From: a virus
Strand: one strand, 5' to 3'
Virus record (IMG/VR): IMGVR_UViG_3300036831_000067
Location: 8,082-72,081 of that record
DNA: 64,000 nt
Shown: positions 8,921-45,542 of the stretch, piece after piece
Numbering within the stretch: position 1 is the stretch's first letter
Layout of the letters: each line of letters begins with the position of its first letter
Notes under the pieces: model-generated
The model's database searches: none
What the model saw: only the letters and a program-made list of their open reading frames with translations
What the model was told of the DNA's origin: nothing
Translations under genes and position numbers: made by a program

Positions 8921-11900
8921 ATGTCCACTTCAGCGAGTCTAGGGATGTTCGAGATCGATGCGGCATCCGGTATCCAGGAACAGATCAACCAGCAGCAGGC
9001 TCTCGACAAGCTAGCCGCTGCCGCTTACGACGTGCGCGAGCGCTTCGGCGAGTTCCTGTTTCAGGCCGCTTCCGTCGAGGAGTTCCGCGACCGGGTGGCC
9101 CTGGTCAAAAACGACGCCATGAAGGTGATCGATAAGCACCTGATGCCGGTGACCGGCGTGGTGCGCCGGGTGATGGGTCGCAACTCTGAGCTGGAGAAGG
9201 AGTTCCGGTCCCAGCTCGGTGTGCTCAAGGGCGCCCCCGACAGCGGCAACACCGACGACGGCCGTTTGCACGGTCCCTTCGCGGGTTATGACGACTGGGA
9301 GGACTGCACCTCCAAGAACTCCGACAAGGGTGACCCGGACGCCTACTGCGGGCAGATTTATCACCAGGTGGAGGAGGGCCGCAAGGACAAGGGCGAGCCC
9401 CTGACCGACTTCCAGGACAAGCAGTCCCGGCGCCGACGCGCCCAGGGCGCCGGGGGTATCGATGACGAAACCTTCCACACCGGTGAGACCCCCGGCAATA
9501 TCGGAATGGATCCCGGGTCGGCCAGCCCTTCGGCGACCGGTCTTCAGGACCAGACCCTGCGATCGGCGCACCGTGTGGCGTATGAGGACAGTGGCCCCAC
9601 CCGGGCGCTGTGGCGCGGCAAGCCGGTCAAGCCCCAGAACGACAAGGGATATCACCCCCACGGTGACGAGTGGGAGAGGGTCCCCAATGCCGGATACCCC
9701 CTCGACGAGGAGGGTCGCGAGATCACTTCGGAGGACCGCCACGATCCCGAATGGGAGAACGTGCTGCACGAGCGCCAGCGCCGGGAGAAGGCCAAGAAGC
9801 CACCGCGCCCTCAGCCCCGTGACCACGGCGAGCAGTACTTCCGCGATCAGACGCGTCGTAGCCAGAAGACGGCGACTGTGGTGCCCGGTGACCGCGTGGA
9901 ACTTCACCCCGCCACCGACGCCTGGATGAGTGGTGACAGGTACGGAGAGGTTCAACACGTCACTCCCACCCACGCGCATGTGCTGATGGACCGCAGTGGG
10001 AAGACGAGAAAAATCCCGCACGAGATGTACAGGTACGTCGACAAGCATGGCGAAAAGGATGTCTATGGCCGCCGTACGGCGCGGCCGTTTGCGGATTTCC
10101 GTGATGCCATCGACGAGGACCGGCCGTTCACTCCCGAGGAGGAGGAGGCTTCGGCTCGGCAATACCGCGAGCGTCCGCCCATCCACTTCGACCCGCGCGC
10201 GGCCCGGCGCCGCCAGGCTGAGGAGGAGGGCCGCCCCCTTCTGGATACTGACGAGACCTTCGAGGATCACCAGGGCGAAGAGTTGGAGCCTGAGGGTGAC
10301 TTCAAGGGTTACCTCAGCGACGTCGACCAGGGCGCCCCGGAGAAGATCGACGATAACTTCGTCGACAATCCCGATGCCCGAGAGCACACCGAGAACCCGG
10401 CCACCAGTGGGGACTTCGCCAAGGCCTCCTCGGTCTATCGCCAGTTCGTCGCCTTTTGCCGACACAACCGGTTGCCTCTTCACCTGGGCACTTTGGAGCG
10501 CCATGGCCGCAGGCTGTCTGATCGGGACTATCTGATCATCGCGCGCCAGATGCAGGCCGAGACATACCAGGGCGAGGGCGACGTTGAAAAGAAGTCGGGT
10601 CCCTTCGCCGGGCCGCACGGTTCCTTTCCGGTAGGTACCCCTGAGGATCTGGATCACGCCAAGGATGTCTGCAATATGCCCTCGGTGAAGTCCAAGCACC
10701 CGGGCACCTGCGAGAGCATCGAGAAGCGGCAGAAACCGGCGCGGCGCCAGAAAGACAGGGGTTCCAGCCGCCGTCGCACCGCTCAGCCCGACTATTTGCA
10801 AAAGGCCGATGAGGCGCTGACGAATCTGCTCAACCAACGTGCCGAGCAGTTCCAGGAGGAGGTCGCCCCCTTCCAGCAGGCGCTACAGACCGTGCAGCAG
10901 GCCGAGCAGGCCGTGCAGGCGCAGAACCCGTTGCAGGTGCAGCCACCGGCCGGGACGGTCAACGTGCTGCCTGACCAGGGTGGCCAGGGTGCAGACCAGG
11001 GTATGCCACCGGCTGACCAGGGTGCCCCGCCACCGGCGGCGGCCGAGCAGGGTGGCTTGCCCCCTGACCAGGGCGCCATGCCTCCTCAGGTGGCCGGTAA
11101 GCAGCGTAAGCGAGGTGGTCAGGGAAAAGGTAAGGCCCGGCGCCGCCGGGCCGACAGCCGCCAGGATCGCCACGGTGGCGTGATCGACCACTTCCAAAAC
11201 TGGCTCAAGCAGCGTGGCGAGCTGGGCCGGGGCGGCTGGCCCGACATCGAGGCCTGGGCCAACGAGAACAACATCGGTGAGCGCGGCAAATCGATGGTGC
11301 ACCAGCATCTCTACGGGCCGCAGACAACGCAGCCAACGGCGGGTCGCCACGATGCTCCGCCCTCCTCCCTCACCGATGAGGACCGCTATCAGCAGTGGGC
11401 GGCCGAGCAGGGCCGTGATCCAGATGACTGGGACACCTTCATTCATCACCAGTTCCAGCCCGGTCGGCATGAGGGAAGACGCAAGCAGGCCTGGCAGGGC
11501 TGGGGACCCGTCCCGCAGAACGATCACCGCCGGGTGGCGGGCTGGGACTGGAACGATTACCTCAATGCCTATACCGCCGGTGCCCCGGCCAGGTTCGCCT
11601 GTGAGTGCGGGGAAGCCTTTGACATACCGAGTGGCTTCCACACCTGTCGGTGCGGCAAGCAGTGGAACTCCTGCGTGATCGGAAGTGGGGGCGCCAATCA
11701 CGAGGCCAGTGCCGAGCAGTACCTGGTGCGTGAGATCCCGGTCAGGCCCGGGGTGGTGGTGGCCAACCGCCGGTCCAAGTTTGTCGGCTACGACGAGGAC
11801 GACGACTTCGATGATGACCGGCCCCCAGAAAGGAAGCGAAACCGCTTCCAGGATGACGCGTGGCGCAATCGTGGCATCGACGACGACCAGCTGGGTAACG

Positions 11901-12781: not shown

Positions 12782-13149
12782 TCGCCTCGGTGTGTCACAG
12801 CTGTAAGAAGCTGGCCGACGTGGTATATACCGACAGGCTGGGACTGGGGTACTGCGTTCGGTGCCTGCCCAGCCTCCCGGTGACCAGCGAGATGCTGGGC
12901 CTGCAGTACCTGATGACGACAGTGCCGTTCAAGGAGGGCGATCGCGTGCAGTGCCGGACCGGCGGAGTCATCTTCGACGGCGTCGGCACCGTGCAGGAGG
13001 TCTCCTTCGACCTGGAGCATGGCGGCACGCTGATCTTCCCGATGTTCCGGGTGAGCATCGATGAGCCCGCCGACGAGCTGAGCCCGGCCGAGGGTTGGTA
13101 CAGTGAAATTTGTTTAGCTAGGGTAAAAGATGACGCTCACAGTAGCTGA
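12778..13149 (+). CDS. Hypothetical protein (CxxC pairs plus SH3/KOW-like 'FKEGDRV' domain)
   Basis: GTGA coupling at 12778; CHSC and CVRC. Confidence 0.65.
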   Translation: MIASVCHSCKKLADVVYTDRLGLGYCVRCLPSLPVTSEMLGLQYLMTTVPFKEGDRVQCRTGGVIFDGVGTVQEVSFDLEHGGTLIFPMFRVSIDEPADELSPAEGWYSEICLARVKDDAHSS

Positions 13150-13582
13150 ACGGGCGGAATCGTATCGACAGCGGGGATTGAGAATAGGTGCTGTCCAGAA
13201 GGGCATACCTAAGATCCGGTGTCAGCCAGGTTGTCAATGCAATAAGCATCGTGATGGAACCCAAGGCCGACGTTTCAACAAGCAGAAAGGTTACTTTGTT
13301 CTAGTTGGCATCGTTCACCCTTTGACCGGTCGAGGTGAATTAAGTGGTCCTGTTTTCGAACATCGAATGGTTTTGTGGGACAAGCTCGGATGTCGGTCTC
13401 TGGATTGTGTTCATCCGTGTTATTGGTGCGGGAAACCTTTAATCTGGGCAACGATTAAGGCTGATCATCTTGATGGAGACAGGCTCAATAACGATCCTGA
13501 GAATTTAGAGCCTTCCTGTAATTCCTGCAACATTCGACGCGGAAGGGCTGGTAGCCCGATCGACTGGAAGCCCACGCGATGA
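13130..13582 (+). CDS. HNH homing endonuclease, free-standing
   Basis: EHR...CYWCG...DHLDGDRLNNDPENLEPSCNSCN; lower GC than flanks; overlaps both neighbours. Confidence 0.9.
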   Translation: MTLTVAERAESYRQRGLRIGAVQKGIPKIRCQPGCQCNKHRDGTQGRRFNKQKGYFVLVGIVHPLTGRGELSGPVFEHRMVLWDKLGCRSLDCVHPCYWCGKPLIWATIKADHLDGDRLNNDPENLEPSCNSCNIRRGRAGSPIDWKPTR

Positions 13583-16134
13583 CCGCACCCTTCACCGTCA
13601 ACGACCGGCGCGGTACCCGGCGCACCGCCTCCGGGCTCTACGTCGGCAACGCGGACCAGGAGTTCAGCCGGTTACGCCAGGCGGGCTACACGTTGCCCAG
13701 CTCCAGGGTGCAGGCCCGGTTGGAGGCTCGCCGGGTCGCCGACACGGTGACCGGCGGATCGATGGTCGACAGCCACAACCGGGCGATGATGTCGCAGATG
13801 CGCCGGGCCAAGATGGCCAGCCTGCGTACCGGGGCCAATATCCAGCTGGCATTGCCCAAGCTGCGTAGTCCTCTGGGCAGCCTCGAAGACAAGGGCATCC
13901 CGTTCAATGTCGAGGATCCCAAGGAATTATCCGAATGTCGCCGCTGGGCCCGGGCCTTTTACGTCACCCATGACCTGGTGCCGTTACTGGTCGACATCTA
14001 TGCACGATTCCCGTTGGTGGGTCTGGAGTTCAAATCGACGGACTCGCTGATCGAGAAATTCTATACGGCCATGTTCCTGGACAATTTGGACTACGAGAAT
14101 TTTCTTCCCGACTGTCTGGGCCGTGAATACTACATCGCCGGGGAAGTCACCTCGCTGGCTCATTTCAATGAGTCCCTGGGCATCTGGTCCTCCGAGGAGG
14201 TCCTCAACCCCGACTTCGTGCGGGTATCCAAGAGCGTGTTCATCGAGGAGGAGCGTGTCCAGCTGCTCGTCAAATCGATGGTCGAGAGCCTGCGCGACGG
14301 TCCCAAGGGCTCACCGTCTGAAGAGTCGCGCTCCGAGCGCGAGGAGCGCACCTTCGAGTACCGCCAGCTGGTCAAGTACTACCCCGAACTGATCCGCGCC
14401 GCCCAGCAGGACGACGGCCTGGACATCAGCCCGGCGCTGTGGAGCCGCATCGTCAACAAGGCCGCCCCGTGGGAGGACCGGGGAACCCCGTTCCTGCTGC
14501 GCTCTTACCGGACCCTGATGATGGAGGAGAGCCTCAACGCCGCCCAGGACGCGGTAGCCGACCGGCTCTACAGCCCGATGATCCTGGCCACCCTCGGCAT
14601 CGAGAACATGGGCGACGGACTGCCCTGGATTCCCGACCAGGACGATCTCGACGCCCTGCGCGACGACATGCAGAACGCCTTGGCGGCCGATTTCAAGCTG
14701 GTCTGCCACCACATGGGTCTCAACGTCCAGAACGTGTTCGGTCGCGAGAGCGTCCCCCGATTCGACCAGGACTACGAGCGCATCGACCTCAAGCTGATGC
14801 AGGCCTGGGGGATTGGCTCGGCCTTGATCATGGGCGGTACCGCAGCGGCGGGCACCTACGCCTCCAGTGCCCTGAACCGCGAGGTCTGCGAGTTGCTGAT
14901 GAAGTCCTTCCAGAAGAAGGTCATCAAGCACATCAAGCAGCGCATGGAGGTCATCGCCGAGGCCCAGGAGCACTATGCCTACGAGAAGAAGGGCGGCTAC
15001 CGGCGCCCGCTGTACCGCGAGGTGGTGCAGTTCAACGAGGAGACGGGTGAAGAGGAAATCGTGAGGGTGCCCGAACTGCTGACGCCTGACGTGGAGTTCC
15101 GCACCCTCAATCTGCGCGACGAGGCCCAGGAACGCCAGTTCATGATCATGCTCAAGGAGCACGGCCTGCCGATCTCCGATAAGAGCATGGCCATCAACAC
15201 GCCGATCGATTTTGAGCAGGAATTGCCGCGCACCTCCGATGAGACCGTCGACAAGATCGTGGCCCAGGCCGAGGCACTCGGGAAGGCCCAGGAGATCGTC
15301 GACGCCAAGAAGCTGCCCTACCCGCAGGACCTGGCCACCTTCCTCACCAACACCCTGCTGTTGCGCCAGCAGTTGGCGCAGACCCAGATCATGGAGGCCC
15401 AGGCCAAGATGGCTTCCCCGGAGGGTCAGGCCCAGGCCGCGCTGGCACAGGCCGGGGCTGGGGGAGAGCAGCAGGAGGGTGCTCAGCCCGCGCTTCCCCC
15501 CGGAATGCCGATGCCCGGCGCGGGAGCAGAGGAGGGCGGCGCCCCGCCGCAGGGTCCTATGGCTGGACCACCCCCGGCAGGCGCCCCGATGCAGATGGGG
15601 GCGGCGGTCACCAATGGAAAGCCGTCGCCCTTCACGGTGTTCGGGCCGTCGGCGGCCGCGCCCGGTGTGCTGCCACCGGAGATGGAGTTCCCTGACGCCG
15701 ACACCGAGACGGAGACCACCGTGACCCCTTCCAAACGCAACTGGGACCAGCCCATGCGCAACTGGGCCCGGCCCACCGAGAGTGACGATCTGAAGTCCAA
15801 CATGCCGCGACGGGCCAAACGAAATGGCGACGAGATCCGTCCGCTTTCCACGCTGGAGGTGGGCCCCAGCTCCCAGGGCCATTCCCGGCGCGTCACCAGA
15901 GCCCAGGTGCACGCGGCGATTCAGCGCATGGAGGCCCAGGCCTCCCCGCCCTCGGTCGAGGAGCTGGTCAACAGTCCCAAGTTCTATGCGCTGACCAACA
16001 TGGGTGCCTACGAGGGCCAGATCCGGGCGGACTTCGCCGAGATCATGGCCGGTGGCGCCGAGGATTCCCGGGATCTGCTCGAGGACACGCTGGAACGCTA
16101 CGAACATCTGACGGGAGTGAGGCCGGTGTGGTAG
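13579..16134 (+). CDS. Portal protein with C-terminal low-complexity extension
   Basis: Position in head module; portal-like core (RGTPFLLRSYRTL...) and a Pro/Gly-rich tail, as in cluster C-type portals (from synteny and recall). Confidence 0.8.
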   Translation: MTAPFTVNDRRGTRRTASGLYVGNADQEFSRLRQAGYTLPSSRVQARLEARRVADTVTGGSMVDSHNRAMMSQMRRAKMASLRTGANIQLALPKLRSPLGSLEDKGIPFNVEDPKELSECRRWARAFYVTHDLVPLLVDIYARFPLVGLEFKSTDSLIEKFYTAMFLDNLDYENFLPDCLGREYYIAGEVTSLAHFNESLGIWSSEEVLNPDFVRVSKSVFIEEERVQLLVKSMVESLRDGPKGSPSEESRSEREERTFEYRQLVKYYPELIRAAQQDDGLDISPALWSRIVNKAAPWEDRGTPFLLRSYRTLMMEESLNAAQDAVADRLYSPMILATLGIENMGDGLPWIPDQDDLDALRDDMQNALAADFKLVCHHMGLNVQNVFGRESVPRFDQDYERIDLKLMQAWGIGSALIMGGTAAAGTYASSALNREVCELLMKSFQKKVIKHIKQRMEVIAEAQEHYAYEKKGGYRRPLYREVVQFNEETGEEEIVRVPELLTPDVEFRTLNLRDEAQERQFMIMLKEHGLPISDKSMAINTPIDFEQELPRTSDETVDKIVAQAEALGKAQEIVDAKKLPYPQDLATFLTNTLLLRQQLAQTQIMEAQAKMASPEGQAQAALAQAGAGGEQQEGAQPALPPGMPMPGAGAEEGGAPPQGPMAGPPPAGAPMQMGAAVTNGKPSPFTVFGPSAAAPGVLPPEMEFPDADTETETTVTPSKRNWDQPMRNWARPTESDDLKSNMPRRAKRNGDEIRPLSTLEVGPSSQGHSRRVTRAQVHAAIQRMEAQASPPSVEELVNSPKFYALTNMGAYEGQIRADFAEIMAGGAEDSRDLLEDTLERYEHLTGVRPVW

Positions 16135-16601
16135 CCCTACTGCGCGATCTCAAAACGGCGACGATCCGGTCCCTGCGTCTGATCGCCGGGGTGGCCGATC
16201 TAGTGGCCGATGCCTGGGCCCCTCTCGAGACTCCGCCGGTCTCGCTGACCGACGAAGTTCCCGAGATCAAGACGGCCGTCGAGGAGGTGAACCTCCCACG
16301 TGTACAGTTCGGATTGCGGTTGCCCAATGGAGAGATTGTTTGGGACACCGAGCTGTACCAAAACCGAGGACTGGCCACCACCGAGCAACGCGCAGCGTTA
16401 TTGGTGGCACTGCGCCAGACGGCGGTTGATCTAAGTTTTCCCGAGCAAGATTTTCTGGGGTTCTACGGTTGGGCCCGGCGGTTGTGCTGGCCCCGGACTG
16501 GAGAGGTGGGGGAAGAGGTCGACGTGGTTCCGATGTTCGCACCAGACCCGGTGTCGCTGGGAAGTACCAATGGAAATGTTGAAAGCCCGTTGCCCACATA
16601 G
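16128..16601 (+). CDS. Hypothetical protein
   Basis: ORF overlapping the portal stop, GGGAG upstream. Confidence 0.6.
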   Translation: MVALLRDLKTATIRSLRLIAGVADLVADAWAPLETPPVSLTDEVPEIKTAVEEVNLPRVQFGLRLPNGEIVWDTELYQNRGLATTEQRAALLVALRQTAVDLSFPEQDFLGFYGWARRLCWPRTGEVGEEVDVVPMFAPDPVSLGSTNGNVESPLPT

Positions 16602-16653
16602 GGTTCCGGAGTACGGTGTTCATGATCCCCCTCCTACAGAAAGTTGATCCGCG

Positions 16654-16950
16654 ATGCCGCGTACCACAGATGTCTACTATCTGACGCTGCCGGTAGACAG
16701 TATTGACCAGGGCACCAGTCTGGCCGATTACCTCACCAAACATGGTGTGCATGCGGAGGTGGAACTGCCGGACGGCGTGTTGTGTCCCGTCGAGGAGATG
16801 TCGGCCACCGGGTTGATCCAGCAGCTGCACCAACACTGGAAGCTCTACTGGCAACATTCCGATGCCGAGTTGTTCGGTTTGCCGGTGTTCGTCAAGCCGA
16901 CTCAGGAACCGTCCGGTTGTACCGAATGTAACCGGTCGCAATGTGACTGA
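16654..16950 (+). CDS. Hypothetical protein
   Basis: 98-aa ORF overlapping the next gene. Confidence 0.65.
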   Translation: MPRTTDVYYLTLPVDSIDQGTSLADYLTKHGVHAEVELPDGVLCPVEEMSATGLIQQLHQHWKLYWQHSDAELFGLPVFVKPTQEPSGCTECNRSQCD

Positions 16951-17512
16951 TTTCTACCGGAGGGCCGACGCCTCCCAGGCGCAGGCCACCGGAGGCATGG
17001 TGGCCTTGTTCCCCCGGTCGGACTACGCCGAGATGCTGGCTGTGCCCGGTGGCGAGGACATCGATGCGCTGCACTGCACCCTGGCCTTTCTCGGCCAGGA
17101 TGTCACCGACATGTCCGACGGGAACCTGGGAGCGGCCGTGGGCGCCATCGCCGATTCCTACACCTCGATCGAGGCCAACGTCTTCGGGCACGCCATCTTC
17201 AACCCCGACGCACCCGGTGACGGAGACGATCCGGCCGGGGTGTACTTGTTGACCGATTCCCCCGAACTGGACAAGGTCTACAACGAAATCATCGATGCCG
17301 TCGAAGGCGCCTTTCCGATACCCGAGCAGCACGTTCCCTGGATCCCTCACGTGACTTGCAGCTACGGGCGCCCGCCCCTGGTCGGGCAGTACACCGGGCC
17401 GATCATCTTCGACCGGCTGGGCTTCGCGTTCGCCGGTGACACCAGCTTCTACCCCCTGGTGGGGGCAAGCCTTAACGCTTCGGTAGCCAGCTTGACACCC
17501 TGGTCCCTGTAG
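16943..17512 (+). CDS. 2H phosphoesterase (2'-5' RNA ligase/Acb1-like fold)
   Basis: Two HxT motifs, LHCTLAF and PHVTCSY, about 95 aa apart; GTG 16943 start. Confidence 0.8.
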   Translation: MTDFYRRADASQAQATGGMVALFPRSDYAEMLAVPGGEDIDALHCTLAFLGQDVTDMSDGNLGAAVGAIADSYTSIEANVFGHAIFNPDAPGDGDDPAGVYLLTDSPELDKVYNEIIDAVEGAFPIPEQHVPWIPHVTCSYGRPPLVGQYTGPIIFDRLGFAFAGDTSFYPLVGASLNASVASLTPWSL

Positions 17513-17539
17513 ATCGGCCGCCTCCCGCCCAAAAAAGGG
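17507..17539 (+). promoter_or_regulatory. Candidate phage late-promoter motif
   Basis: CCCTGT-N23-AAAGGG then AGGAGG RBS. Confidence 0.6.
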
Positions 17540-17554
17540 TAGGAGGATGCCGCG

Positions 17555-20500
17555 ATGACCCAGCTTTTCACCGCACACGGCCTCGGCGACGTCATCAAGA
17601 CCGATACCGTGCGTGGACGCACCAGTTACCTGGTTAAAGGCACGGGCTTTAAGGTGTGGGTGGACGCGACGAAGTGCCGTGTCGCCACCGAGGAGGGCGG
17701 CGCTGCTCCGGAACAGCTGTTCACCAACACCTTCAGCCCGGAGAAGTATCTCGATCCCGAGACGGCCATTCGCAGCGGCTCCGACGCGTTCTCTTACGAG
17801 CCGCCGATCCACGTCCAGGACAACTCGACGACGCTGCCCTACGATCCCACTCCGCAGTTTCCCGTCGACATGTTCACCGAGCAGACCATCCAGCCCGGTG
17901 AGCAGGAGATCGACCCCGAGAAGCGGTTGTCCCCCAGCGACTCGCGCTCCCAGAGTGATCGGCGCCCAGAACACCCCTGGCCGAGCCCGGACCCTCAGCT
18001 GTTCGCGGGTGCCTATCACCAGGCCCTCGACGAGCGCGAGAGGGGCTTCAGCCCCCAAGGCCCCTCCGGGGGCGATCTCGACCCGTTCACCACGGCCCCC
18101 CGGCTGCGTTCCGAGGACGAGCCGGTCTATCCCTTCGACAAGGTCTCCCCGCGTGGGCTGACCACCCACGAGATGGATCCTGACGAGCAGTACTGGTATC
18201 ACGACCCGGAGGCCGGTGCCTGGCGCAACCCGTATCGCCACTACGAGGACATGCGCCACGTCAAGGTCAATCCGCGCGGGACCGACCGGGAGAACATGTA
18301 CGGCCCGGCCTACATGGGCTCGGTGATCGACCCCAACCTGCCGACCGGCAGCTTCCACGTCGCCGGGCTCTCCGACCGTTACGCCGACATCCCGGCCGCT
18401 CGAGAGGACCCCAACGATCCGGCGGTGGCCTTCCGGGTCAACCCGCTGGCCTTCCTGCAGCGCCACGCCGCCATTCACGAGGCCCTGGATGCGCCTACCG
18501 GTGAGCTGATGGACGCGGTGCTGGCCGACCGCAGGCTGTTCATCTCGGCCTGGCGTGACGTGCACGCCAAGGCCATGCGGCTGCGCCGCGAGGGCCGGGT
18601 CCACATCAAGCAGTCCACCCCGGAGGCGATCTACGCCACCGTCCAGGGTGATCACCACTTCTACGACACGATCATCATCCGGGGCAACGTGTTCGACCTG
18701 GGCGGTCAGTCGGTCACCGCCTGGCGGTGCGGCTGCAAGTGGGGCCAGTGGGCGTTCAAGCGCAAGCTCACCTACGTCGGCCGGTTCTGCAGCCACGCCC
18801 TGGCCACCTATCACGAGATGCAGCACCTGCACAGCCGTGGCAACGGCGGCACCGGTTTCCGCAACCCCTACACCCGCAAGCACACCTCCTCGGTGGTCGA
18901 CGACTTCAAGTCCTGGGCCCGCGACAACGGCCAGCTCATCGACGAGACCAGCCTGCCCAACTTCATCTCCCAGTCCGACACGGACGAGGACGAACGGCTC
19001 ACCAAGGAGCAGGTTGAGCAGCTCTACGACTACGTCGAGGGCAACCAGGAGGAGACCCCAGAACGTAAGTTCGATATCGATTACACGCTGGATCCCGACG
19101 AGGCGTATAAGACAGCCGATGCCTTACGCACCCAGCCGCGCAGCCTGACCCCGGATCTGCAGTTCGTGCCCGAGGGCGAGGACGAGCACTTCGTCGACGT
19201 CGAGAAGGACGATCGCAAGACCACCGGTCCCGGCCAGATCATGCACGGTGGCCAGCACAGGCTGGATGAGGCCACGGGTATCGTTTCCAACCCATATACA
19301 GGAGATGAGAGGGGCAAATTCGAGGGGAACCCCCTCGGGCACGGCCACTGGGTTCCAGGAGACACCACTCCACAAGAGCCCGACATCGAGCACTTCGCGG
19401 CACTGCAGCGTCACTGCGACGACAACTGCCTGCCCTACCCGTCGGAGCTGTCCCGGTTCTTGATGCACGGCGATGTCGAGGAGTTCCGCCCCGATACCGG
19501 TGAGGCTGCCGGACGATTGGACAAGTTGCGTGATCTGATTGCCGAGCCCACCGAGGACCACTTCGGTGACATGCCCGCCTACAACGACAAGATCCGTGAC
19601 CTCGTCGACGAACTGCACGACGAGGGTGTGGGCGCCGACAACCTGGTGGCCAGCCGCCGGTTCGAGGGCGACGGGTCCTTCATGGGCGAGGGTGGCGGCG
19701 ACTGGATGGATCACGGGTTCGCGGGCTCGGGGTACGACCCCAAGGAGTGGTACCAGTCCTCTGATGACCCCGACGGGTACATCGAGAAGCATGAGCGCCC
19801 CCGGTTCCAGGACGTCACCAACCTGCCCGACGGCGACATCATCAAGTACAACGATTCCGACGGCCCGGTGACTAAGCCACGGGAGGCCTGGCGTCAAGCC
19901 GATGCCTGGTCGAACGAGACTTCTTCGGCCACTCCCCCGGCCCAGAACACGGCGCCCGGTGACATGGGGGAGATGAGCGGCGGGCAGCCCCTGGTGCAGG
20001 ATCCCGGGACCGAGGACCCCGGTCTTGTCACGGGCCGTAATTTCTTTGGTGACGACGATGCCGACATGGGTTTGGATGGTGTCGGGAACACTACTCCGTC
20101 GGCCACGGTGACCAATCCCGGCGACATGAGCGCGCAGACCGGCGGGGCCGGGTCGGGTGACTATATGCACCCGCAGTCCTCCGAGAACATTCAGTACTCC
20201 CAGCGGATGCAGCAGCATCGCCGCAAGCGCGCGGATAAGCCGCGCCCGCCTTCGGTGCGCCGCCTGGGCTATGACACCACCACCCTGCCCCCGGGCTGGG
20301 GAGACGTTCCCGAGAGCAGCGATGATGACGACCCGACGTCGGCGATCCCCGGGGCCGACGAACTCAAGAAGCAGATGCCCAAGATGCCCGACCTGCCGGG
20401 CACAGAGCCGGGCGCATCCCCTTCGGGCTCACCCCCGGCCGCCAGTGCGACCTCCGACGTCGCTCCCGAGCTGATGGCGGTGGCGGGCACCGGCGACCAC

Positions 20501-20923
20501 GGCTGGCGTCGCTGTGACCGGCCGCCGGAGAACTTCGGCTATGACGGCCCCTCCGTCGGGTTGTCCATGCACGGGGGCACCGATGACAGCTCTGACGTGG
20601 TTCGTGACTTTCACGCGAGCATGGGTGCCCAAGCCTACGCCCGGGGTGGCGGGGGCGCCGCGCCAGCGAGTTCGCGTCAGGCCGCCATGGCGGCAGCGGG
20701 CGGTGCCCTGATGCCGGTCGGTGCCCGGGGTGGCCGCGAAGCCGGGCGCAATGCCTCCGACGCCGATATTGCGGCACGAGCCAACGAGTTCCTGATGCGT
20801 ACCGCCGGGCGTAACTATCCCCCTCACGAGCAGGCCGAGTTGATGGACGAGCAGCCCGTGGGTGGGTACGGCGCACGTAATCTTGATGGCCTCGATCTTC
20901 GCGGGACTCACTATGTGCAGTAG
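17555..20923 (+). CDS. Large acidic head-associated protein with SWIM-type Zn finger
   Basis: WRCGCKW...FCSHALA (CxC-x(n)-CxH); multiple [KR]xA motifs; lies between portal and protease. Confidence 0.8.
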   Translation: MTQLFTAHGLGDVIKTDTVRGRTSYLVKGTGFKVWVDATKCRVATEEGGAAPEQLFTNTFSPEKYLDPETAIRSGSDAFSYEPPIHVQDNSTTLPYDPTPQFPVDMFTEQTIQPGEQEIDPEKRLSPSDSRSQSDRRPEHPWPSPDPQLFAGAYHQALDERERGFSPQGPSGGDLDPFTTAPRLRSEDEPVYPFDKVSPRGLTTHEMDPDEQYWYHDPEAGAWRNPYRHYEDMRHVKVNPRGTDRENMYGPAYMGSVIDPNLPTGSFHVAGLSDRYADIPAAREDPNDPAVAFRVNPLAFLQRHAAIHEALDAPTGELMDAVLADRRLFISAWRDVHAKAMRLRREGRVHIKQSTPEAIYATVQGDHHFYDTIIIRGNVFDLGGQSVTAWRCGCKWGQWAFKRKLTYVGRFCSHALATYHEMQHLHSRGNGGTGFRNPYTRKHTSSVVDDFKSWARDNGQLIDETSLPNFISQSDTDEDERLTKEQVEQLYDYVEGNQEETPERKFDIDYTLDPDEAYKTADALRTQPRSLTPDLQFVPEGEDEHFVDVEKDDRKTTGPGQIMHGGQHRLDEATGIVSNPYTGDERGKFEGNPLGHGHWVPGDTTPQEPDIEHFAALQRHCDDNCLPYPSELSRFLMHGDVEEFRPDTGEAAGRLDKLRDLIAEPTEDHFGDMPAYNDKIRDLVDELHDEGVGADNLVASRRFEGDGSFMGEGGGDWMDHGFAGSGYDPKEWYQSSDDPDGYIEKHERPRFQDVTNLPDGDIIKYNDSDGPVTKPREAWRQADAWSNETSSATPPAQNTAPGDMGEMSGGQPLVQDPGTEDPGLVTGRNFFGDDDADMGLDGVGNTTPSATVTNPGDMSAQTGGAGSGDYMHPQSSENIQYSQRMQQHRRKRADKPRPPSVRRLGYDTTTLPPGWGDVPESSDDDDPTSAIPGADELKKQMPKMPDLPGTEPGASPSGSPPAASATSDVAPELMAVAGTGDHGWRRCDRPPENFGYDGPSVGLSMHGGTDDSSDVVRDFHASMGAQAYARGGGGAAPASSRQAAMAAAGGALMPVGARGGREAGRNASDADIAARANEFLMRTAGRNYPPHEQAELMDEQPVGGYGARNLDGLDLRGTHYVQ

Positions 20924-20929
20924 CCGCGC

Positions 20930-23797
20930 ATGACGACAACTCTGGCCCCGGCACCACCGCGTCGCTTCGAGGCGTCGGCGGTCCGGCCCGTCTCCCATGA
21001 CGGCGTCAGGCAGCTCCTGCTGGCCTACCGCTCCGCCAAGTACGGCGCCGTGATTCCTCACTTCGAGCTGCTGCCCGGGATGATCTACACCAAGGTGCGC
21101 GCGATCAGTGCCCGGATCAATCAGAATTGGGACGCCTGGCCGTCCGAGGAACTGAAGAAGAGCTACAAGACCTTCCTGGGTAAGCCGGTGTTCGTCAACC
21201 ACAACAACTTTGACCCGACTCGAGCCCGGGGGCGGGTGGTGGCTTCCCAGTACATCGAGAAGGACGCCGACAAGTACATCGAGGTGATCCAAGAGGTCGA
21301 CGGCGTCCGGTTCCCCAAGCTCGCCCACGAGATCCGTACCGGGGGTATGGACAGCGTCAGCATGGGTGTGGAGGCGGGCTTCACCATCTGCAGCTACTGC
21401 GGCAACAGGGCCACCGATGTCTGGGACATGTGTGACCACGTGAAGTTCCACAAGGGCACGCACCTGCCCGATCCTCGCACCGGCCAGCCGAGGCTGGTGT
21501 TCGAGCACTGCTACAAGCTGGGCTTCTTCGAGTTGAGCTATGTCTTCGACCCGGCCGACGAGACGGCGGTGGTCAACCAGGTGGTGGTGGCGAACAAGAA
21601 AGCCTGGAAGCCAATGAGTCCCGGTCTCGACGCGTATATGGATTGGGTGAACGATGCCGGGACGCTGGTGCATCCGGACAGCGCAGAAGAGTATATCCAG
21701 AGCTACCGGCCGGAAAATCCGGACGAGATCAGAGAGTTCGCTCACGGTCAGGGCGGTAAGGCCTATGGGCCGCCGGAGCGTCATCACATGAAAAGACCAG
21801 CACGTCGCAGGCAGGCCTGGGGTGAGACTGAAGCCCCCGAGGACATCGACACACTGCGCGAAGACGACGACGACTCCGACGACGACTATGAGTTCGTCAC
21901 TCCCTATCGTCCGCGCGACGAGGAAGACTCCCCGTTCCAGCACTATCTGGAATCTCCGGAGGAGCTGCAGACCCCCGACTTCGACCAGACCAAGCGGCTC
22001 GACCGTGCCCAGGAGCAGGAAGGCCTGGACGCCGATCGGCTGGTGGAGGACGTCGAAGAGGTCGGGACTCTTGAAGGTCCCGAAGGTCCTGAAGGTCAGG
22101 ATCCCCAAGCAGGTCAGCGTCCGCAGATGGCGCGCAAAACAAGGAGGAACGCCATGGCTCGCAACAGGTATGCGGCTGAGGAGGACGAGGACCGCCGCCC
22201 GCCGTGGCTGCGTGACGATGACTCCGAAGACCGCGACGAAGACCGCGATCACGACGAAGACCGCGACGAAGAGGATGACGATCGCGACGACGACGACGAT
22301 GACCGCGATGAGGATCACGACGATGAAGATCGTGATGACGACCGCGATCACGACGAGGAGGACCGGCGCCCTCCCCAGTTCGAGTCGCGTCGACGGCGCC
22401 CCCGTCAGGGACGGCGCTACTACGCCGACGATGACAAGGACGACGACGATTCCGACGATAAGGATCGCGACGACGACGACAAAGACGACGACGACAAGCC
22501 GCCGTGGCTGAAGGGGAAGGAATCCCGACGTCGGCGCCCTGTTAATCCTCGCTCCTCGCGACAGAAGGGGAGAAAGAAGGGATCACCCATGGGCGCCACT
22601 CTGGCCGAGCGCGGGCAGGTTGTCGCGTCCCGGCAGCGTCGTCATTTCCGTGCCGACGACAGCGGCAACACTGACGGTGGTCCCTACGGGCGCAACGATC
22701 TGGGCGAGCAGGCCGAGACCTTCATCCCGGCGGTGTTCGGCGAGGGTGACGGTGTGCCGCCTGCCGAGAAGGTGGAGGCCCCGGCCGGGGACGAGCCCAA
22801 GGAGTCCAACACCGAGTCCAACCTAGTGGCCTCCATTGCGGCCAAGACCCGCAGCCTGAAGGCCGACCTCAACCGGTACCAGAGGCTCAAAGGCCGTCGT
22901 CTGCACGCCGAGGAGGGCGTCGAGGACCCCAAGGTGGTCAACCCGGAGCTGTCGGGTACCGACGACCAGAGCCTTAAGGGCGATGACTTTCAGGACACCG
23001 GTCTCTCCGACACCGAGACCCATCCCACCGACGGGGACCGCAGTGCGGCACGGGCCCGGGGCGACGACGAGAGCCGCCAGTGGTTCGCCGCGTTCGACTC
23101 CTGGTTGACCCAGGCGACCGGCAAGCCGTGGCAGTACCACACCTCGGCTGCGCTCACGCGCGCGGCCGCGCGGTGGGCCAACGGCACCGGTATCGCGCTC
23201 GACCGGCTCTTCCCGACCCTGGAAACTGCCCTGCGCCAGGCAAGAAAGGGCGAAGCCGAAAGGAAAGCCATGAACCGCACCGCAGAAGGGCTGGATGAAG
23301 CGGCCCCCGACGCCCGTGTGGACGTGGAGAAGCCGGTCAGCGACGAGACGAACGACCGGGCCCAGGCCTCCCAGTTCGACCTCGGCGAGTTCGGCCACAA
23401 CGCCGGTGACGATCTGGCCGATCCGGAGATGTCTTCGGACTCCCAGATTTGGGCGCCGGGCAAGGAAGGCCGCCACGTGCGGATGGCGGACGGGGTGACG
23501 GCGGTTCGTTGTGCCGAGGCCTACATCCGGATGCGCATGGCCAGCCCTGAAGACAAATGGAAACTCGCAGGCTGGTTGCAGACCATCCGCCACGCCACCG
23601 TGGTGGACCGGACCAACCTGCTGGAAGCGGCATTCGAGGCCAACAGAAGGTCTCTTACCGCAAAACGGACTCCCGCCGGAATTTCACGCGGGGCCGTGCG
23701 GTCGATCCCCCCGGGGCTGACCTCGGGCGGACGGACGGCGTCCTTTGAACGTGAGGCCGCCTACGACCGCATCAACGACTCCGCGATCTTTATGTAG
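20930..23797 (+). CDS. Capsid maturation (prohead) protease fused to an acidic scaffold region
   Basis: GKPVFVNH (His), SVSMG (Ser), CSYCG...CDH Zn insert, FFELSYVFDPAD; long D/E-rich C-terminal half; directly upstream of decoration and capsid genes. Confidence 0.85.
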   Translation: MTTTLAPAPPRRFEASAVRPVSHDGVRQLLLAYRSAKYGAVIPHFELLPGMIYTKVRAISARINQNWDAWPSEELKKSYKTFLGKPVFVNHNNFDPTRARGRVVASQYIEKDADKYIEVIQEVDGVRFPKLAHEIRTGGMDSVSMGVEAGFTICSYCGNRATDVWDMCDHVKFHKGTHLPDPRTGQPRLVFEHCYKLGFFELSYVFDPADETAVVNQVVVANKKAWKPMSPGLDAYMDWVNDAGTLVHPDSAEEYIQSYRPENPDEIREFAHGQGGKAYGPPERHHMKRPARRRQAWGETEAPEDIDTLREDDDDSDDDYEFVTPYRPRDEEDSPFQHYLESPEELQTPDFDQTKRLDRAQEQEGLDADRLVEDVEEVGTLEGPEGPEGQDPQAGQRPQMARKTRRNAMARNRYAAEEDEDRRPPWLRDDDSEDRDEDRDHDEDRDEEDDDRDDDDDDRDEDHDDEDRDDDRDHDEEDRRPPQFESRRRRPRQGRRYYADDDKDDDDSDDKDRDDDDKDDDDKPPWLKGKESRRRRPVNPRSSRQKGRKKGSPMGATLAERGQVVASRQRRHFRADDSGNTDGGPYGRNDLGEQAETFIPAVFGEGDGVPPAEKVEAPAGDEPKESNTESNLVASIAAKTRSLKADLNRYQRLKGRRLHAEEGVEDPKVVNPELSGTDDQSLKGDDFQDTGLSDTETHPTDGDRSAARARGDDESRQWFAAFDSWLTQATGKPWQYHTSAALTRAAARWANGTGIALDRLFPTLETALRQARKGEAERKAMNRTAEGLDEAAPDARVDVEKPVSDETNDRAQASQFDLGEFGHNAGDDLADPEMSSDSQIWAPGKEGRHVRMADGVTAVRCAEAYIRMRMASPEDKWKLAGWLQTIRHATVVDRTNLLEAAFEANRRSLTAKRTPAGISRGAVRSIPPGLTSGGRTASFEREAAYDRINDSAIFM
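22180..22510 (+). repeat. Low-complexity D/E/R-encoding tandem repeats
   Basis: Repeated gaccgcga(c/t) and gacgac units encoding DRDEDRDHDED..., flanked by RRPPWL, RRPPQF and KPPWL. Confidence 0.8.
22539..22570 (+). promoter_or_regulatory. Internal late-promoter motif upstream of in-frame ATG 22589 (nested scaffold)
   Basis: CCCTGT-N21-GAAGGGG followed by AAGAAGGGA RBS and in-frame ATG. Confidence 0.55.
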
Positions 23798-23829: not shown

Positions 23830-24402
23830 ATGCTTCGTGTAACCCTCAGCAACCCCGCGCAGAAGCGCACCCTGTTGCCCAAATATGCACAGACGCAGGC
23901 CACTGCGTACTCGGGTTTCCTTGACCCGGCGTGGCCGCGCACCTATGACATCTACCCAGGTAGTGTCATGGCCCGCGAAAACGACGAGGTGTTCACCTTG
24001 TTCACCGGTGCCACCGGTCAGGTCCCCTTCGGTCTGTCGTCACTGTTCGTCGCGCCCCAGTTGGGGATCGACGAGGTGCTGGCCACCGGCGGCAACGAGT
24101 TCACGGTGTGGACCATCGAGCCCCAGGGCGAGTTCGAGGTCTTGGCTCCGGCCTTCGACCAGAACGCCAACTGGGCCACGGCGGCCACCAGCCACGGCGG
24201 CATCTGCCTGCTGACCGGGACGACCGCTTCGGTCACCCTGTCCAACGGGTTTGTCCAGCCGCCCGGCGTGCTGACCCCCACCGGGGCCAACAACGCCAAC
24301 TCGATCGCTGAACTCATCTCGGTCGAGACCACCAGCAAGATTCTCATCCGAGGCCGACGCTACAACTTCGCGTCGACCGTCGCGCTGGGTACCGGAAGCT
24401 AA
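23830..24402 (+). CDS. Capsid decoration / minor capsid protein
   Basis: 190 aa between protease and major capsid; AAAGGAGG RBS; matches cluster C-type synteny. Confidence 0.7.
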   Translation: MLRVTLSNPAQKRTLLPKYAQTQATAYSGFLDPAWPRTYDIYPGSVMARENDEVFTLFTGATGQVPFGLSSLFVAPQLGIDEVLATGGNEFTVWTIEPQGEFEVLAPAFDQNANWATAATSHGGICLLTGTTASVTLSNGFVQPPGVLTPTGANNANSIAELISVETTSKILIRGRRYNFASTVALGTGS

Positions 24403-45177: not shown

Positions 45178-45542
45178 ACGCATTGTCGGAGTTGGAAGTG
45201 CGGCTAGCCTACGAAAAGGGACATCTCAGCCAGAAGAACCTCAACCCCTTTCAGCACTGGGCGCTGTTGTACTGGCTCTACCTGAACCGGCGCACCGAGG
45301 TCGAGGACATCCAGGCCGAACTGATCCAGCAGACCTACAACCTGTTCCCCGAACGCTGGGGCGATCTGTACCGCTCTCACGTGCTCAACGAGCTTGGCAT
45401 CGCCGACGAGGCGGCGGAGGACGTCGTGGTTGACGACCTCGACGAACTCAACAAGTTCTACGAGCAGATGGAAAAGAAGCAGTGGATCCGGGGCGGTAAC
45501 CTGCCGGATGCCTTCACGCCGCAACGGGGCGTACGCGTATGA
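44482..45542 (+). CDS. Tail assembly chaperone, -1 frameshifted long form (joins to ORF 45183..45542)
   Basis: The -1 frame is open from 45159 (GKIQRLDALSELEVR...) to 45542; the second ORF has no good RBS. Confidence 0.85.

What the first reader, a model, noticed from the sequence alone, without database searches (positions are those of the whole stretch)
8921..23797. Candidate capsid-cargo polyprotein system: head proteins punctuated by basic-run + [K/R]-x-A putative protease sites
Seen: the three giant head-module ORFs are strings of short, mostly acidic modules separated by one motif. In 8921..12781: RRRRA|Q, HRVA|Y, QKTA|T, RRTA|R, RRRQA|E, RRRTA|Q, RRRRA|D, RRKQA|W, RRVA|G, RHRAA|H, RDRAA|G, RRRAA|G. 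In 17555..20923: CRVA|T, YKTA|D, WRQA|D, RRKRA|D, MRTA|G. In the protease/scaffold: RRRQA|W, NRYA|A, NRTA|E, VRMA|D, GRTA|S, plus variants RRYYA|D, HFRA|D and RRLHA|E. The portal N-terminus has RRTA|S and RRVA|D. The motif is not similarly enriched in sheath, tube or baseplate proteins. Established: prohead proteases of T4 (gp21) and phiKZ (gp175) cut many internal head proteins at a short consensus ending in Glu. Inference: the 20930 protease cuts after [K/R]-x-A, so these ORFs are polyproteins that load dozens of peptides and small domains into the head for injection, with new modules able to insert between sites.
Basis: partly seen in the sequence, partly recalled or inferred. Interest (0 to 1): 0.9.

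Follow-up and report, generated by a model that had tools for sequence, protein, structure and literature searches.

The report
Candidate Arg-x-Ala cleavage motif, phage head proteins
The head proteins of this actinobacteriophage-like virus repeatedly carry an arginine-x-alanine motif at the places where a capsid-maturation protease would be expected to cut, which suggests, without yet proving, a cutting rule not described for this protease family.

Summary
The window is the structural module of an uncultured myovirus related to Mycobacterium phages Phrappuccino, Myrna and Bxz1 and Gordonia phage Pupper. Bare [K/R]-x-A is not head-specific in this window: head proteins run 1.47x over local-shuffle expectation and tail proteins 1.35x. 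The basic-run version is head-specific (29 observed vs 11.1 expected in head, 6 vs 4.8 in tail). That signal comes from the 8921 and 20930 ORFs, not from 17555.

Across relatives the signal is stronger. R-x-A is the top or near-top of all 400 a-x-b pairs in all three head-protein families. It sits at conserved positions:
- the major capsid protein N-terminus;
- the junction after the gp21/assemblin-fold protease domain;
- about 18 residues from the scaffold C-terminus;
- about 38 residues from the C-terminus of the 17555 protein;
- both flanks of enzyme domains inserted in homologues.

The best reading (about 0.58) is that the fused protease-scaffold cuts after a small residue with Arg or Lys at P3. 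This resembles herpesvirus assemblin more than the Glu rule of T4. Cleavage itself, "dozens of peptides" and injection are not shown. I rate it a new variant of a known kind.

The parts
8921..12781 (+). Large head-module protein (1286 aa, P0001, PHROG 2922, function unknown). Folded modules alternate with long disordered linkers.
   Evidence: AF2 confident at residues 14-104, 119-154, 499-550, 624-668, 752-800, 819-844 and 868-947, the last a Zn-ribbon-like beta domain. Syntenic with Myrna gp87, Phrappuccino gp44 and Pupper gp86.
10769..10783 (+). RRRTA (residues 617-621): candidate site three residues before the conserved helix PDYLQKADEAL...
   Evidence: Lies in a linker with pLDDT below 50. 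P1 is Ala in 15 of 21 aligned homologues. Conserved as RRRTA / RRYA in 2 of the 3 closest homologues aligned.
11477..11491 (+). RRKQA (residues 853-857): candidate site in the linker before the Zn-ribbon module. RRVA (870-873, nt 11528-11539) lies at the module edge.
   Evidence: The three close homologues aligned have RRKQA, RRKVA and RKQA at this place.
9428..9442 (+). RRRRA (residues 170-174): one of the lineage-specific basic-run sites in disordered linkers. The others are 10067-10081, 10205-10219 and 11138-11152.
   Evidence: These sites are poorly conserved in homologues.
13579..16134 (+). Portal protein (851 aa). N-terminal RRTA (nt 13618-13629) and RRVA (nt 13729-13740).
   Evidence: PHROG 2833, E = 0. 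RTA|SG is shared with Phrappuccino but absent in Myrna, Bxz1 and Pupper. In the portal family R.A is only 1.19x and RR.A 2.43x.
17555..20923 (+). Second large head-module protein (1122 aa, P0002, PHROG 2940), with a CxC...CxH (SWIM-like) segment.
   Evidence: weak lead. No motif enrichment in this ORF alone. The family shows R.A at 1.54x.
20795..20806 (+). MRTA (residues 1081-1084): nearly invariant candidate site. It is followed by a conserved 38-residue C-terminal tail, GRxY..EQ..L....GARNL..LDL.GTHY (nt 20807-20920).
   Evidence: P3 is K/R in 28 of 31 homologues and P1 is Ala in 30 of 31. C-terminal alignments.
20930..23797 (+). Protease-scaffold fusion protein (955 aa, P0003).
   Evidence: PHROG 18299 'head maturation protease', E 1.2e-21 (residues 65-217), and PHROG 2774, E 2e-192. 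AF2 domain map. The family has 440 members at E <= 1e-10.
20993..21595 (+). Protease domain (residues 22-222). H91 and S144 (in DSVSMG) are invariant. It carries an invariant C154/C157/C168/H170 insert.
   Evidence: AF2 is confident over this domain. The top Foldseek PDB hits are T4 gp21 5jbl (probability 1.00, E 3e-3, TM 0.57 on the target), followed by herpesvirus proteases. Invariant residues in 61 sequences.
21596..21604 (+). KKA (residues 223-225): candidate release site directly after the protease domain.
   Evidence: 62 of 110 family members with the anchor have [KR].A within 22 residues of the domain end, against 36% for random windows. P1 lies at +12 to +14 in 51 of them.
21803..21817 (+). 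RRRQA (residues 292-296), followed by WGETEAPEDIDTLRE: the conserved junction site.
   Evidence: In 97 family members with the junction anchor: P1 is A in 78, G in 18, S in 1; P3 is R in 69, K in 17, H in 9; P4 is R in 54; P1' is Y in 69, W in 23, F in 5. Lies in a disordered stretch.
22049..22810 (+). Disordered stretch rich in Asp with interspersed basic runs (residues 374-627). Includes RRYYA (494-499) and RRHFRA (570-575, nt 22637-22654).
   Evidence: GRVA...RRRHxADDSG is conserved in the family (motif column present in 53 of 61).
22142..22156 (+). In-frame AGGAGG-N6-ATG (Met409): candidate internal start for a separate scaffold protein.
   Evidence: Same spacing as the MCP gene's ribosome-binding site. 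The AGG AGG codon pair is conserved in 8 of 31 homologous genes examined. AGG makes up 7% of Arg codons here.
23270..23284 (+). MNRTA (residues 781-785): candidate site at the end of the first scaffold helical domain (residues 706-782).
   Evidence: Motif present in 58 of 61 aligned sequences, and P1' is D, E or N in 57 of those 58. Disorder begins at residue 783.
23729..23740 (+). GRTA (residues 934-937): candidate maturation site 18 residues from the C-terminus. The tail (nt 23741-23794) ends in the family motif R-x-A-A-N-D-P..D..[LF].
   Evidence: P1 is Ala in 18 of 23 homologues and the motif is present in 36 of 61. Lies in a disordered stretch, 914-946.
23830..24402 (+). Cement / minor capsid protein (190 aa).
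   Evidence: PF23968, E 1e-64. In the family R.A is depleted: 3 observed vs 10.0 expected.
24414..25427 (+). Major capsid protein (337 aa). N-terminal candidate site R15-Y16-G17-S18-A19 (nt 24456-24470).
   Evidence: PHROG 2522, E 2e-126. In 110 family members with the anchor, P3 is R in 107, P1 is A in 93 and S in 17, and P1' is K in 65 and R in 44. The window's own subclade has a two-residue insert, R-[YF]-G-[AS]-A.

Best explanation
The 20930 gene encodes a prohead serine protease of the T4 gp21 / herpesvirus assemblin fold, fused to the capsid scaffold. I propose that it cuts after a small residue (Ala, less often Gly or Ser) that has Arg or Lys at P3 and often more basic residues at P4-P5.

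The likely cuts, in decreasing confidence:
1. Removal of about 17-19 N-terminal residues of the major capsid protein.
2. Release of the protease domain at KKA(225) and RRRQA(296).
3. Removal of the 18-residue scaffold C-terminal tail at GRTA(937), and further cuts at scaffold domain boundaries (MNRTA 785, RRHFRA 575).
4. Removal of the conserved 38-residue C-terminal tail of the 17555 protein at MRTA(1084).
5. Cuts in the disordered linkers of the 8921 protein, directly before its conserved modules.

Shown here: the fold and family of the protease, the position and conservation of the motif, its enrichment, and its location in linkers.

Inferred: that these are cleavage sites, that the scissile bond follows the Ala, that the C-terminal tails act as anchors to shell or core, and that released modules stay in the head.
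For: Unbiased scan. Among all 400 a-x-b pairs, scored against shuffles within 20-residue blocks, RxA and KxA rank 1 and 2 in the protease-scaffold family (386 vs 237; 244 vs 138). RxA ranks 2 in the 8921 family, after CxC, and 4 in the 17555 family. It is not in the top 10 for the portal.

Family-level observed/expected for R.A: 1.69, 1.54 and 1.62 in the three head families, 1.17 in 224 other ORFs of the same loci, 1.19 in portal and 0.30 in cement. RR.A is 3.86 and 3.30 in the 8921 and protease-scaffold families, against 1.48 in the other ORFs. Adjacent RA is depleted (0.63-0.68), as are R.G, R.E and R.S.

Motifs of known relatives are not comparably enriched: [SAG].E is 0.94-1.07, [LI].E is 1.02-1.31 and [VLI].A is 0.93-1.33, against 1.51-1.66 for [KR].A.

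Conserved positions:
- MCP N-terminus: R at P3 in 107 of 110, A or S at P1 in 110 of 110. In the smaller set, R-x-A in 16 of 21 and R-x-S in 4 of 21.
- Junction: P1 is A, G or S in 97 of 97, and P3 is K or R in 86 of 97.
- C-terminal site of the 17555 protein: Ala in 30 of 31.
- Scaffold sites.

Inserted domains. In homologues, domains matching the SLT, transglycosylase-like, isochorismatase and L5-gp82-like Pfam families sit between a site directly after the protease domain and the junction site. The distance between these two points ranges from 13 to 873 residues.

Structure and precedent. Basic-run sites lie in low-confidence linkers. The protease fold matches T4 gp21 and then the herpesvirus proteases. 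Herpesvirus proteases cut at Ala: the pseudorabies R-site is YLQA-T and the M-site is VQA-S, which removes a C-terminal capsid-binding tail (PMC4498786, passages read).
Against: There is no proteomic or biochemical evidence for cleavage at any site. My literature searches found none for this phage group.

Characterised phage members of this protease family cut after Glu: T4 gp21, and SPN3US gp245 with its AXE motif (PMC7411985, passages read).

Within this window the bare motif is about as over-represented in tail proteins (1.35x) as in head proteins (1.47x).

Eleven of the 22 bare sites in the protease-scaffold lie inside the confident protease domain or confident helices. They are conserved there, so conservation may reflect structure or binding rather than cutting.

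The 17555 ORF is not enriched on its own.

The window's own MCP lacks the canonical spacing, having R-Y-G-S-A. Bxz1 has LQA, with no basic P3, at the junction.

Family members are related to each other, so the z-scores are inflated.

One RRxA instance (RRNA, 405-408) is better explained by an internal ribosome-binding site.
Confidence: 0.58

Rival explanations
1. The motif is not a cleavage signal. Basic runs followed by a small residue reflect other constraints on internal head proteins, such as DNA or shell contacts, helix capping, or local R/A-rich composition. The protease would then cut at a different motif, for instance after Glu as in T4, phiKZ and SPN3US.
For: Characterised phage relatives cut after Glu (PMC7411985). 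R..A, R...A and A.R are also above expectation in these families. Many conserved [KR].A lie in confident helices. Tail proteins and an endolysin in the window show a similar excess of bare [KR].A. The MCP N-terminal segment is conserved as a whole, including S-[DE]-[DE]-Y just downstream, so that site cannot be assigned to one motif.
Against: The excess survives shuffling within 10- and 20-residue blocks. RxA/KxA is the top pair apart from Cys-containing pairs (and WxD in the 17555 family) in all three head families, and not in portal. Glu-ending motifs are not enriched, and Glu is not conserved at the MCP site (D in Myrna and Bxz1) or at the scaffold C-terminal site. The same short motif recurs at four functionally different places where maturation cuts are known in T4-like or herpes systems.
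Confidence: 0.25
2. Only the few canonical sites are cut: the MCP N-terminus, the junction after the protease, and the scaffold C-terminus. The many basic-run sites in the 8921 protein would be uncut by-products of its Arg-rich disordered linkers, and that protein would stay whole in, or be absent from, the virion.
For: Most basic-run sites of the 8921 protein are poorly conserved in homologues. Its family is very divergent, with a mean column identity of 13-14%. There is no evidence here that the protein is in the head at all, beyond its conserved position next to the portal gene.
Against: RR.A is 3.86x over local expectation across 25 non-redundant members of that family, so each lineage keeps the motif even where positions shift. 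Three sites directly before conserved modules are kept in close homologues.
Confidence: 0.3

Closest known systems
T4 gp21, phiKZ gp175 and SPN3US gp245 prohead proteases with their processed head, core and ejection proteins
   Same: Same protease fold: the top PDB match is T4 gp21, with PHROG and tblastn matches to jumbo-phage 'head maturation protease'. The gene lies in the head module beside the scaffold and MCP genes. One short motif is shared by the MCP N-terminus, the protease's own C-terminal side and several large internal head proteins. In those systems propeptides serve as targeting sequences (PMC7411985, passages).
   Different: The candidate motif ends in Ala/Gly/Ser with Arg/Lys at P3, not in Glu, and Glu-type motifs are not enriched. 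The protease is fused to the scaffold. Conserved candidate sites also remove C-terminal tails, not only N-terminal propeptides. The phiKZ specificity is recalled, not read here.
Herpesvirus assemblin-scaffold polyprotein (pUL26 / pUL26.5)
   Same: An N-terminal protease of the same fold class fused to a C-terminal scaffold. Cuts occur after Ala at a release site following the protease and at a maturation site near the C-terminus, which removes the capsid-binding tail (PMC4498786, passages). Here RRRQA|W lies after the protease and GRTA|S lies 18 residues from the end. A candidate in-frame internal start for a separate scaffold parallels the nested UL26.5 gene.
   Different: P3 is basic here, not hydrophobic. 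A capsid-protein N-terminal site is present. Homologues carry enzyme domains inserted between protease and scaffold. Fold similarity to the herpes enzymes is weaker than to T4 gp21. The catalytic triad was not mapped.
Annotated 'capsid maturation protease' of cluster C, AA and DQ actinobacteriophages (Pupper gp94; Phrappuccino gp53, Myrna gp97 and Bxz1 gp95 are mostly labelled hypothetical)
   Same: Direct homologues in the same gene order: large protein, small gene, portal..., 'RNA ligase', large protein, protease-scaffold, cement, MCP.
   Different: No cleavage motif, release or maturation sites, nested start or cargo inserts are described in the annotations or in the papers I could search.

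Membership tests
gp21-type (assemblin-fold) prohead serine protease | Protease fold shared with T4 gp21 and herpesvirus proteases | tested here: met
   The AF2 model is confident over residues 22-222. Foldseek PDB ranks 1-3 are T4 gp21 5jbl (probability 1.00-0.99, E 3e-3 to 1.5e-2, TM 0.55-0.57 on the target), followed by many herpesvirus proteases. The E-values are weak because the query was the whole 955-residue model.
gp21-type (assemblin-fold) prohead serine protease | Sequence-family match to phage head maturation proteases | tested here: met
   PHROG 18299, E 1.2e-21, residues 65-217. tblastn matches annotated head maturation proteases of Erwinia and Dickeya jumbo phages at 30-34% identity. 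No Pfam hit at E <= 0.01 and no PDB sequence hit.
gp21-type (assemblin-fold) prohead serine protease | Conserved catalytic Ser and His | tested here: inconclusive
   H91 and S144 are invariant, and S142 is at least 90% conserved, in 61 sequences. I could not map them residue by residue onto the catalytic residues of a solved structure.
gp21-type (assemblin-fold) prohead serine protease | Cleavage after Glu in a short x-x-E motif (T4, SPN3US) | tested here: inconclusive
   Only sequence statistics were possible. [SAG].E and [LI].E are not enriched in the head families, apart from [LI].E at 1.31x in the 17555 family. Cleavage itself is not testable here.
Assemblin-scaffold polyprotein architecture (herpes pUL26-like) | Protease and scaffold in one polypeptide | tested here: met
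   The protease domain is followed by disordered and helical scaffold-like regions and a conserved C-terminal tail in one 955-aa ORF. The arrangement is conserved in 120 listed family members.
Assemblin-scaffold polyprotein architecture (herpes pUL26-like) | Release and maturation sites with Ala at P1 | not testable with these tools
   The sequence is consistent: the junction P1 is A in 78 of 97, and the C-terminal R-x-A is present in 36-38 of 61. Cutting is not shown.
Assemblin-scaffold polyprotein architecture (herpes pUL26-like) | Nested in-frame gene giving free scaffold | tested here: inconclusive
   AGGAGG-N6-ATG at 22142-22156. The AGG AGG pair is conserved in 8 of 31 homologous genes. 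No expression data.
Protease-processed internal head / ejection proteins (T4 IPs and Alt; SPN3US E proteins) | Encoded in the head module and carrying the protease's motif at the boundaries of removable peptides | tested here: met
   Conserved position flanking the portal and protease genes. Candidate sites lie at module boundaries and before conserved terminal tails.
Protease-processed internal head / ejection proteins (T4 IPs and Alt; SPN3US E proteins) | Presence in the virion and entry into the host cell | not testable with these tools
   No virion proteome is available for this virus. The Myrna capsid paper I read gives no data on these proteins in the passages seen.

The most novel reading that the evidence does not exclude
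A large clade of actinobacteriophage-like viruses has re-tuned a gp21/assemblin-fold protease to an Arg-x-Ala rule. The clade comprises at least 440 protease-scaffold clusters and 1162 capsid-protein clusters at 90% identity. It uses the rule as a general cargo-loading platform. Head proteins, including the protease-scaffold itself, are true polyproteins. New enzyme modules (matching the SLT, transglycosylase-like and isochorismatase Pfam families, and others) are captured between duplicated sites, carried into the prohead by shared terminal anchor peptides, cut free, and delivered to the host with the DNA.
Probability: 0.3. Interest if true: 0.75.

Novelty: new variant of a known kind. Interest (0 to 1): 0.6.

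Why it matters
Prohead proteases of this fold have two known specificities: Glu at P1 in T4-like and phiKZ-like phages, and Ala at P1 in herpesviruses. A phage clade with an Ala-type rule, a protease-scaffold fusion, release- and maturation-like sites and perhaps a nested scaffold gene would be a closer functional parallel between tailed phages and herpesviruses than T4 is.

It would also give a simple rule for predicting mature virion proteins in hundreds of sequenced actinobacteriophages.

The cargo inserts suggest a route by which phages add enzymes to the particle.

All of this is directly testable with cultivated relatives on Mycobacterium smegmatis or Gordonia terrae.

Tried and rejected
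DNA-level repeat as the cause: rejected, because Arg and Ala codons differ from site to site.

Glu-ending motifs of T4 or phiKZ/SPN3US type, and the herpes-type hydrophobic-x-Ala motif, as the family's shared motif: not enriched to a comparable degree.

Shared targeting modules among the three large proteins: pairwise BLASTP gave only low-complexity matches.

Structure-based function for the 8921 protein: the BFVD fold search returned only uncharacterised homologues from Mycobacterium phage Shifa and Rhodococcus phage Finch.

Function of the 17555 protein: the ESM Atlas gave only a weak SWIM lead, score 0.79.

PDB sequence search with the protease domain: no real hit. With the MCP, the only hit was 6wkk 'Gp27 major capsid protein', aligned from query residue 41. 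The phage G paper I then read in passages gave no cleavage data.

Complex prediction, MCP with scaffold residues 850-955: no verdict (score 0.00, controls not run). I draw nothing from it.

The search for related loci with the single portal protein found nothing. The five-sequence alignment worked.

Literature searches for a described cleavage motif or virion N-termini in cluster C, Phrappuccino or Pupper-type phages found none. These cover only the held library. The supplementary mass-spectrometry tables of PMC7150772 are described in the text as concerning Rosebush, but I could not see them.

Papers actually seen:
- PMC7150772, PMC7411985, PMC4498786 and PMC12484599: matching passages only.
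- All others: search listings only.

The phiKZ gp175 motif, lambda C/Nu3 and P2 gpO are recalled, not read.
Full report
WHAT THE REGION IS

The window is bases 8082-72081 of a 72,081-bp uncultured virus record estimated about 48% complete. G+C is about 63% and all long genes are on the + strand.

Gene content from PHROG and Pfam scans:
- a 1286-aa protein of unknown function (8921-12781)
- an HNH endonuclease ORF (13130-13582)
- portal (13579-16134)
- DUF7316 (16128-16601)
- a 2H-phosphoesterase / 'RNA ligase'-like ORF (16862-17512)
- a 1122-aa protein of unknown function (17555-20923)
- a 955-aa protein whose residues 65-217 match 'head maturation protease' (20930-23797)
- cement protein PF23968 (23830-24402)
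- major capsid protein (24414-25427)
- downstream: sheath, tape measure and baseplate genes

The nearest named relatives are Mycobacterium phages Phrappuccino and Settecandela (75% nucleotide identity over 46% of the portal gene), cluster C phages (Bxz1, Myrna, Tonenili) and Gordonia phages Pupper and Skog. The order of head genes is the same in the four annotated records I fetched.

CHECK OF THE OBSERVATION

With whole-protein shuffles, [KR].A is only mildly high: 8921 ORF 23 vs 15.4, 20930 ORF 22 vs 14.1, 17555 ORF 11 vs 9.1. RR.A is 8 vs 1.0 in the 8921 ORF and absent from all tail proteins.

Arg and Ala cluster locally, so I repeated the test with shuffles confined to 20-residue blocks. 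Results:
- Bare [KR].A is 56 vs 38.1 in the three head ORFs and 48 vs 35.6 in 11 tail proteins. It is therefore not head-specific.
- The basic-run form [KR][KR].{1,2}A is 29 vs 11.1 in head and 6 vs 4.8 in tail.
- The 17555 ORF contributes nothing to this (2 vs 1.8).

Codons at the sites vary, so the motif acts at the protein level.

COMPARATIVE EVIDENCE

I collected 120 listed representatives of 440 protease-scaffold homologues, 71 related viral loci anchored on the portal, and 120 listed of 1162 capsid-protein homologues.

Enrichment in non-redundant family sets, scored against block shuffles:

| Set | R.A obs/exp |
|---|---|
| 8921 family | 1.69 |
| 17555 family | 1.54 |
| protease-scaffold family | 1.62 |
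| portal | 1.19 |
| cement | 0.30 |
| 224 other ORFs of the same loci | 1.17 |

- RR.A is 3.86 and 3.30 in the 8921 and protease-scaffold families, 1.53 in the 17555 family and 1.48 in the other ORFs.
- Adjacent RA and R.G, R.E, R.D and R.S are depleted.
- In an unbiased scan of all 400 a-x-b pairs, RxA and KxA rank first and second in the protease-scaffold family. RxA ranks second in the 8921 family and fourth in the 17555 family, each behind Cys pairs of zinc-binding segments (and WxD in the 17555 family). It does not reach the portal's top ten.
- Motifs of known relatives are not enriched to this degree.
- Caveat: family members are related, so the z-scores overstate significance.

Conserved positions:
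1. Capsid protein N-terminus. In 110 of 120 sequences with the downstream anchor, P3 is Arg in 107, P1 is Ala in 93 and Ser in 17, and P1' is Lys or Arg in 109. The window and its nearest subclade have R-[YF]-G-[AS]-A, which can be read as R-x-G or as a shifted site.
2. Junction after the protease domain. It lies in front of a conserved [YWF]-G-E-x-E-x-P segment. In the 97 sequences with the anchor, P1 is A in 78, G in 18 and S in 1; P3 is R in 69, K in 17 and H in 9; P4 is R in 54.
3. Directly after the protease domain. [KR].A occurs within 22 residues in 62 of 110, against 36% for random windows. P1 is at +12 to +14 in 51.
4. Scaffold.
   - MNRTA-type site: 58 of 61.
   - GRVA...RRRHxA: 53 of 61.
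   - A site about 18 residues from the C-terminus: 36 of 61.
   - An R-x-A-A-N-D-P tail motif follows that site.
5. The 17555 protein. L-R-T-A|G-R lies in front of a conserved 38-residue tail, with Ala in 30 of 31.
6. The 8921 protein. RR-x-A lies directly before the conserved PDYLQKADEAL helix and before the Zn-ribbon module in close homologues.

STRUCTURE

AlphaFold2 of the 955-aa protein:
- a confident protease domain (22-222)
- long low-confidence stretches (223-345, 374-627, 660-705, 783-848, 914-946)
- helical scaffold-like domains (629-659, 706-782, 851-911)

Foldseek ranks T4 gp21 first and then many herpesvirus proteases. H91 and S144 are invariant in 61 sequences.

Ten of 22 bare [KR].A sites lie in low-confidence stretches, one lies at a boundary, and 11 lie inside the confident protease domain or confident helices. 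Not every instance can therefore be a site.

In residues 1-1200 of the 8921 protein, 15 of 20 bare sites and 6 of 7 basic-run sites lie in stretches with pLDDT below 50, which make up 55% of residues.

CARGO INSERTS

The distance between the protease domain and the junction ranges from 13 to 873 residues, with a median of 179. Homologues carry domains there matching the SLT, transglycosylase-like, isochorismatase or L5-gp82-like Pfam families. Each is flanked by [KR].A sites on both sides. Where the distance is only 13 residues, a single site serves both roles.

INTERPRETATION

The simplest account is a protease-scaffold polyprotein whose protease cuts after Ala (or Gly or Ser) with Arg or Lys at P3.

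The layout mirrors herpesvirus pUL26. That protein has a release site after the protease and a maturation site near the C-terminus that frees the scaffold from the capsid protein, both cut at Ala (PMC4498786, passages). The multi-substrate aspect mirrors T4 and SPN3US, where the same protease trims the capsid protein, itself, and internal or ejection proteins (PMC7411985, passages).

I put this at about 0.58. What is missing is any direct evidence of cleavage. The main rival (0.25) is that the motif serves another purpose and the protease cuts elsewhere. A narrower rival (0.30) is that only the few canonical sites are used.

ADDITIONAL FINDING

Inside the 20930 ORF an in-frame AGGAGG-N6-ATG (22142-22156, Met409) has the same spacing as the capsid gene's ribosome-binding site. 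The Arg-Arg pair before the Met is encoded AGG AGG in 8 of 31 homologous genes examined. That count includes Phrappuccino twice, from two collections. AGG makes up only 7% of Arg codons in this window. This suggests a nested scaffold gene, as in herpesviruses. It also shows that the RRNA instance at 405-408 is probably a by-product of that signal, since the Ala is not kept in relatives.

NOVELTY AND SCORE

The protease and the gene order are known from annotated relatives. The candidate specificity, the release- and maturation-like sites, the anchor tails, the cargo inserts and the nested start are not described in anything I could search.

I rate it a new variant of a known kind, with interest 0.6. 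It would moderately surprise a specialist, and it is directly testable in cultivated relatives.

Noticed in passing
window 22142-22156 (inside 20930-23797): In-frame AGGAGG-N6-ATG at Met409, with the same spacing as the MCP gene's ribosome-binding site. The rare AGG AGG codon pair is conserved in 8 of 31 homologous genes. This suggests a nested internal start giving a separate scaffold protein of about 547 aa.
   Followed up: partly
window 21389-21439 (residues 154-170 of the 20930 protein): The protease domain carries an invariant C154-x2-C157 ... C168-x-H170 segment (61 sequences), which looks like a zinc-binding insert. The only PDB sequence hit of the domain was a weak match to a zinc finger (E 0.52).
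   Followed up: no
window 13130-13582: An HNH endonuclease ORF lies directly upstream of, and overlaps, the portal start. The four annotated relatives list no HNH gene at this position (Bxz1 has one downstream of its MCP). It is possibly a mobile homing endonuclease insertion.
   Followed up: no
window 16862-17512: A 2H-phosphoesterase / 'RNA ligase'-like gene sits inside the head module and is conserved there in Phrappuccino, Myrna, Bxz1 and Pupper. It also partly matches a PHROG labelled head maturation protease (phrog_18402, positions 397-556 of 861), which hints at fusions elsewhere.
   Followed up: no
window 18700-18830 (about residues 383-425 of the 17555 protein): A CxC...CxH segment resembling a SWIM zinc finger. 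CxC and CxH are the most enriched pairs in this family. The ESM Atlas gave only a weak SWIM lead (0.79).
   Followed up: partly
loci L049, L062, L064, L075 (portal ORFs) and proteins P0012, P0064, P0069, P0094, P0104, P0110: Some relatives have portal ORFs of 1223-1566 aa, against about 850 here. Some protease-scaffold genes carry precomputed intein or homing-endonuclease Pfam hits (PF05203, PF14528, PF14890). This suggests inteins in head genes of this clade.
   Followed up: no
window 45539-48001: The tape measure protein shows a modest excess of the motif ([KR].A 13 vs 7.2; [KR][KR].A 3 vs 0.7, block shuffles). Unexplained.
   Followed up: no
window 23830-24402 and homologues: The cement protein family is depleted in R.A (3 observed vs 10.0 expected in 14 sequences). 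RA and A.R are equally depleted, so this may be a general feature of the family and not avoidance of the motif.
   Followed up: partly
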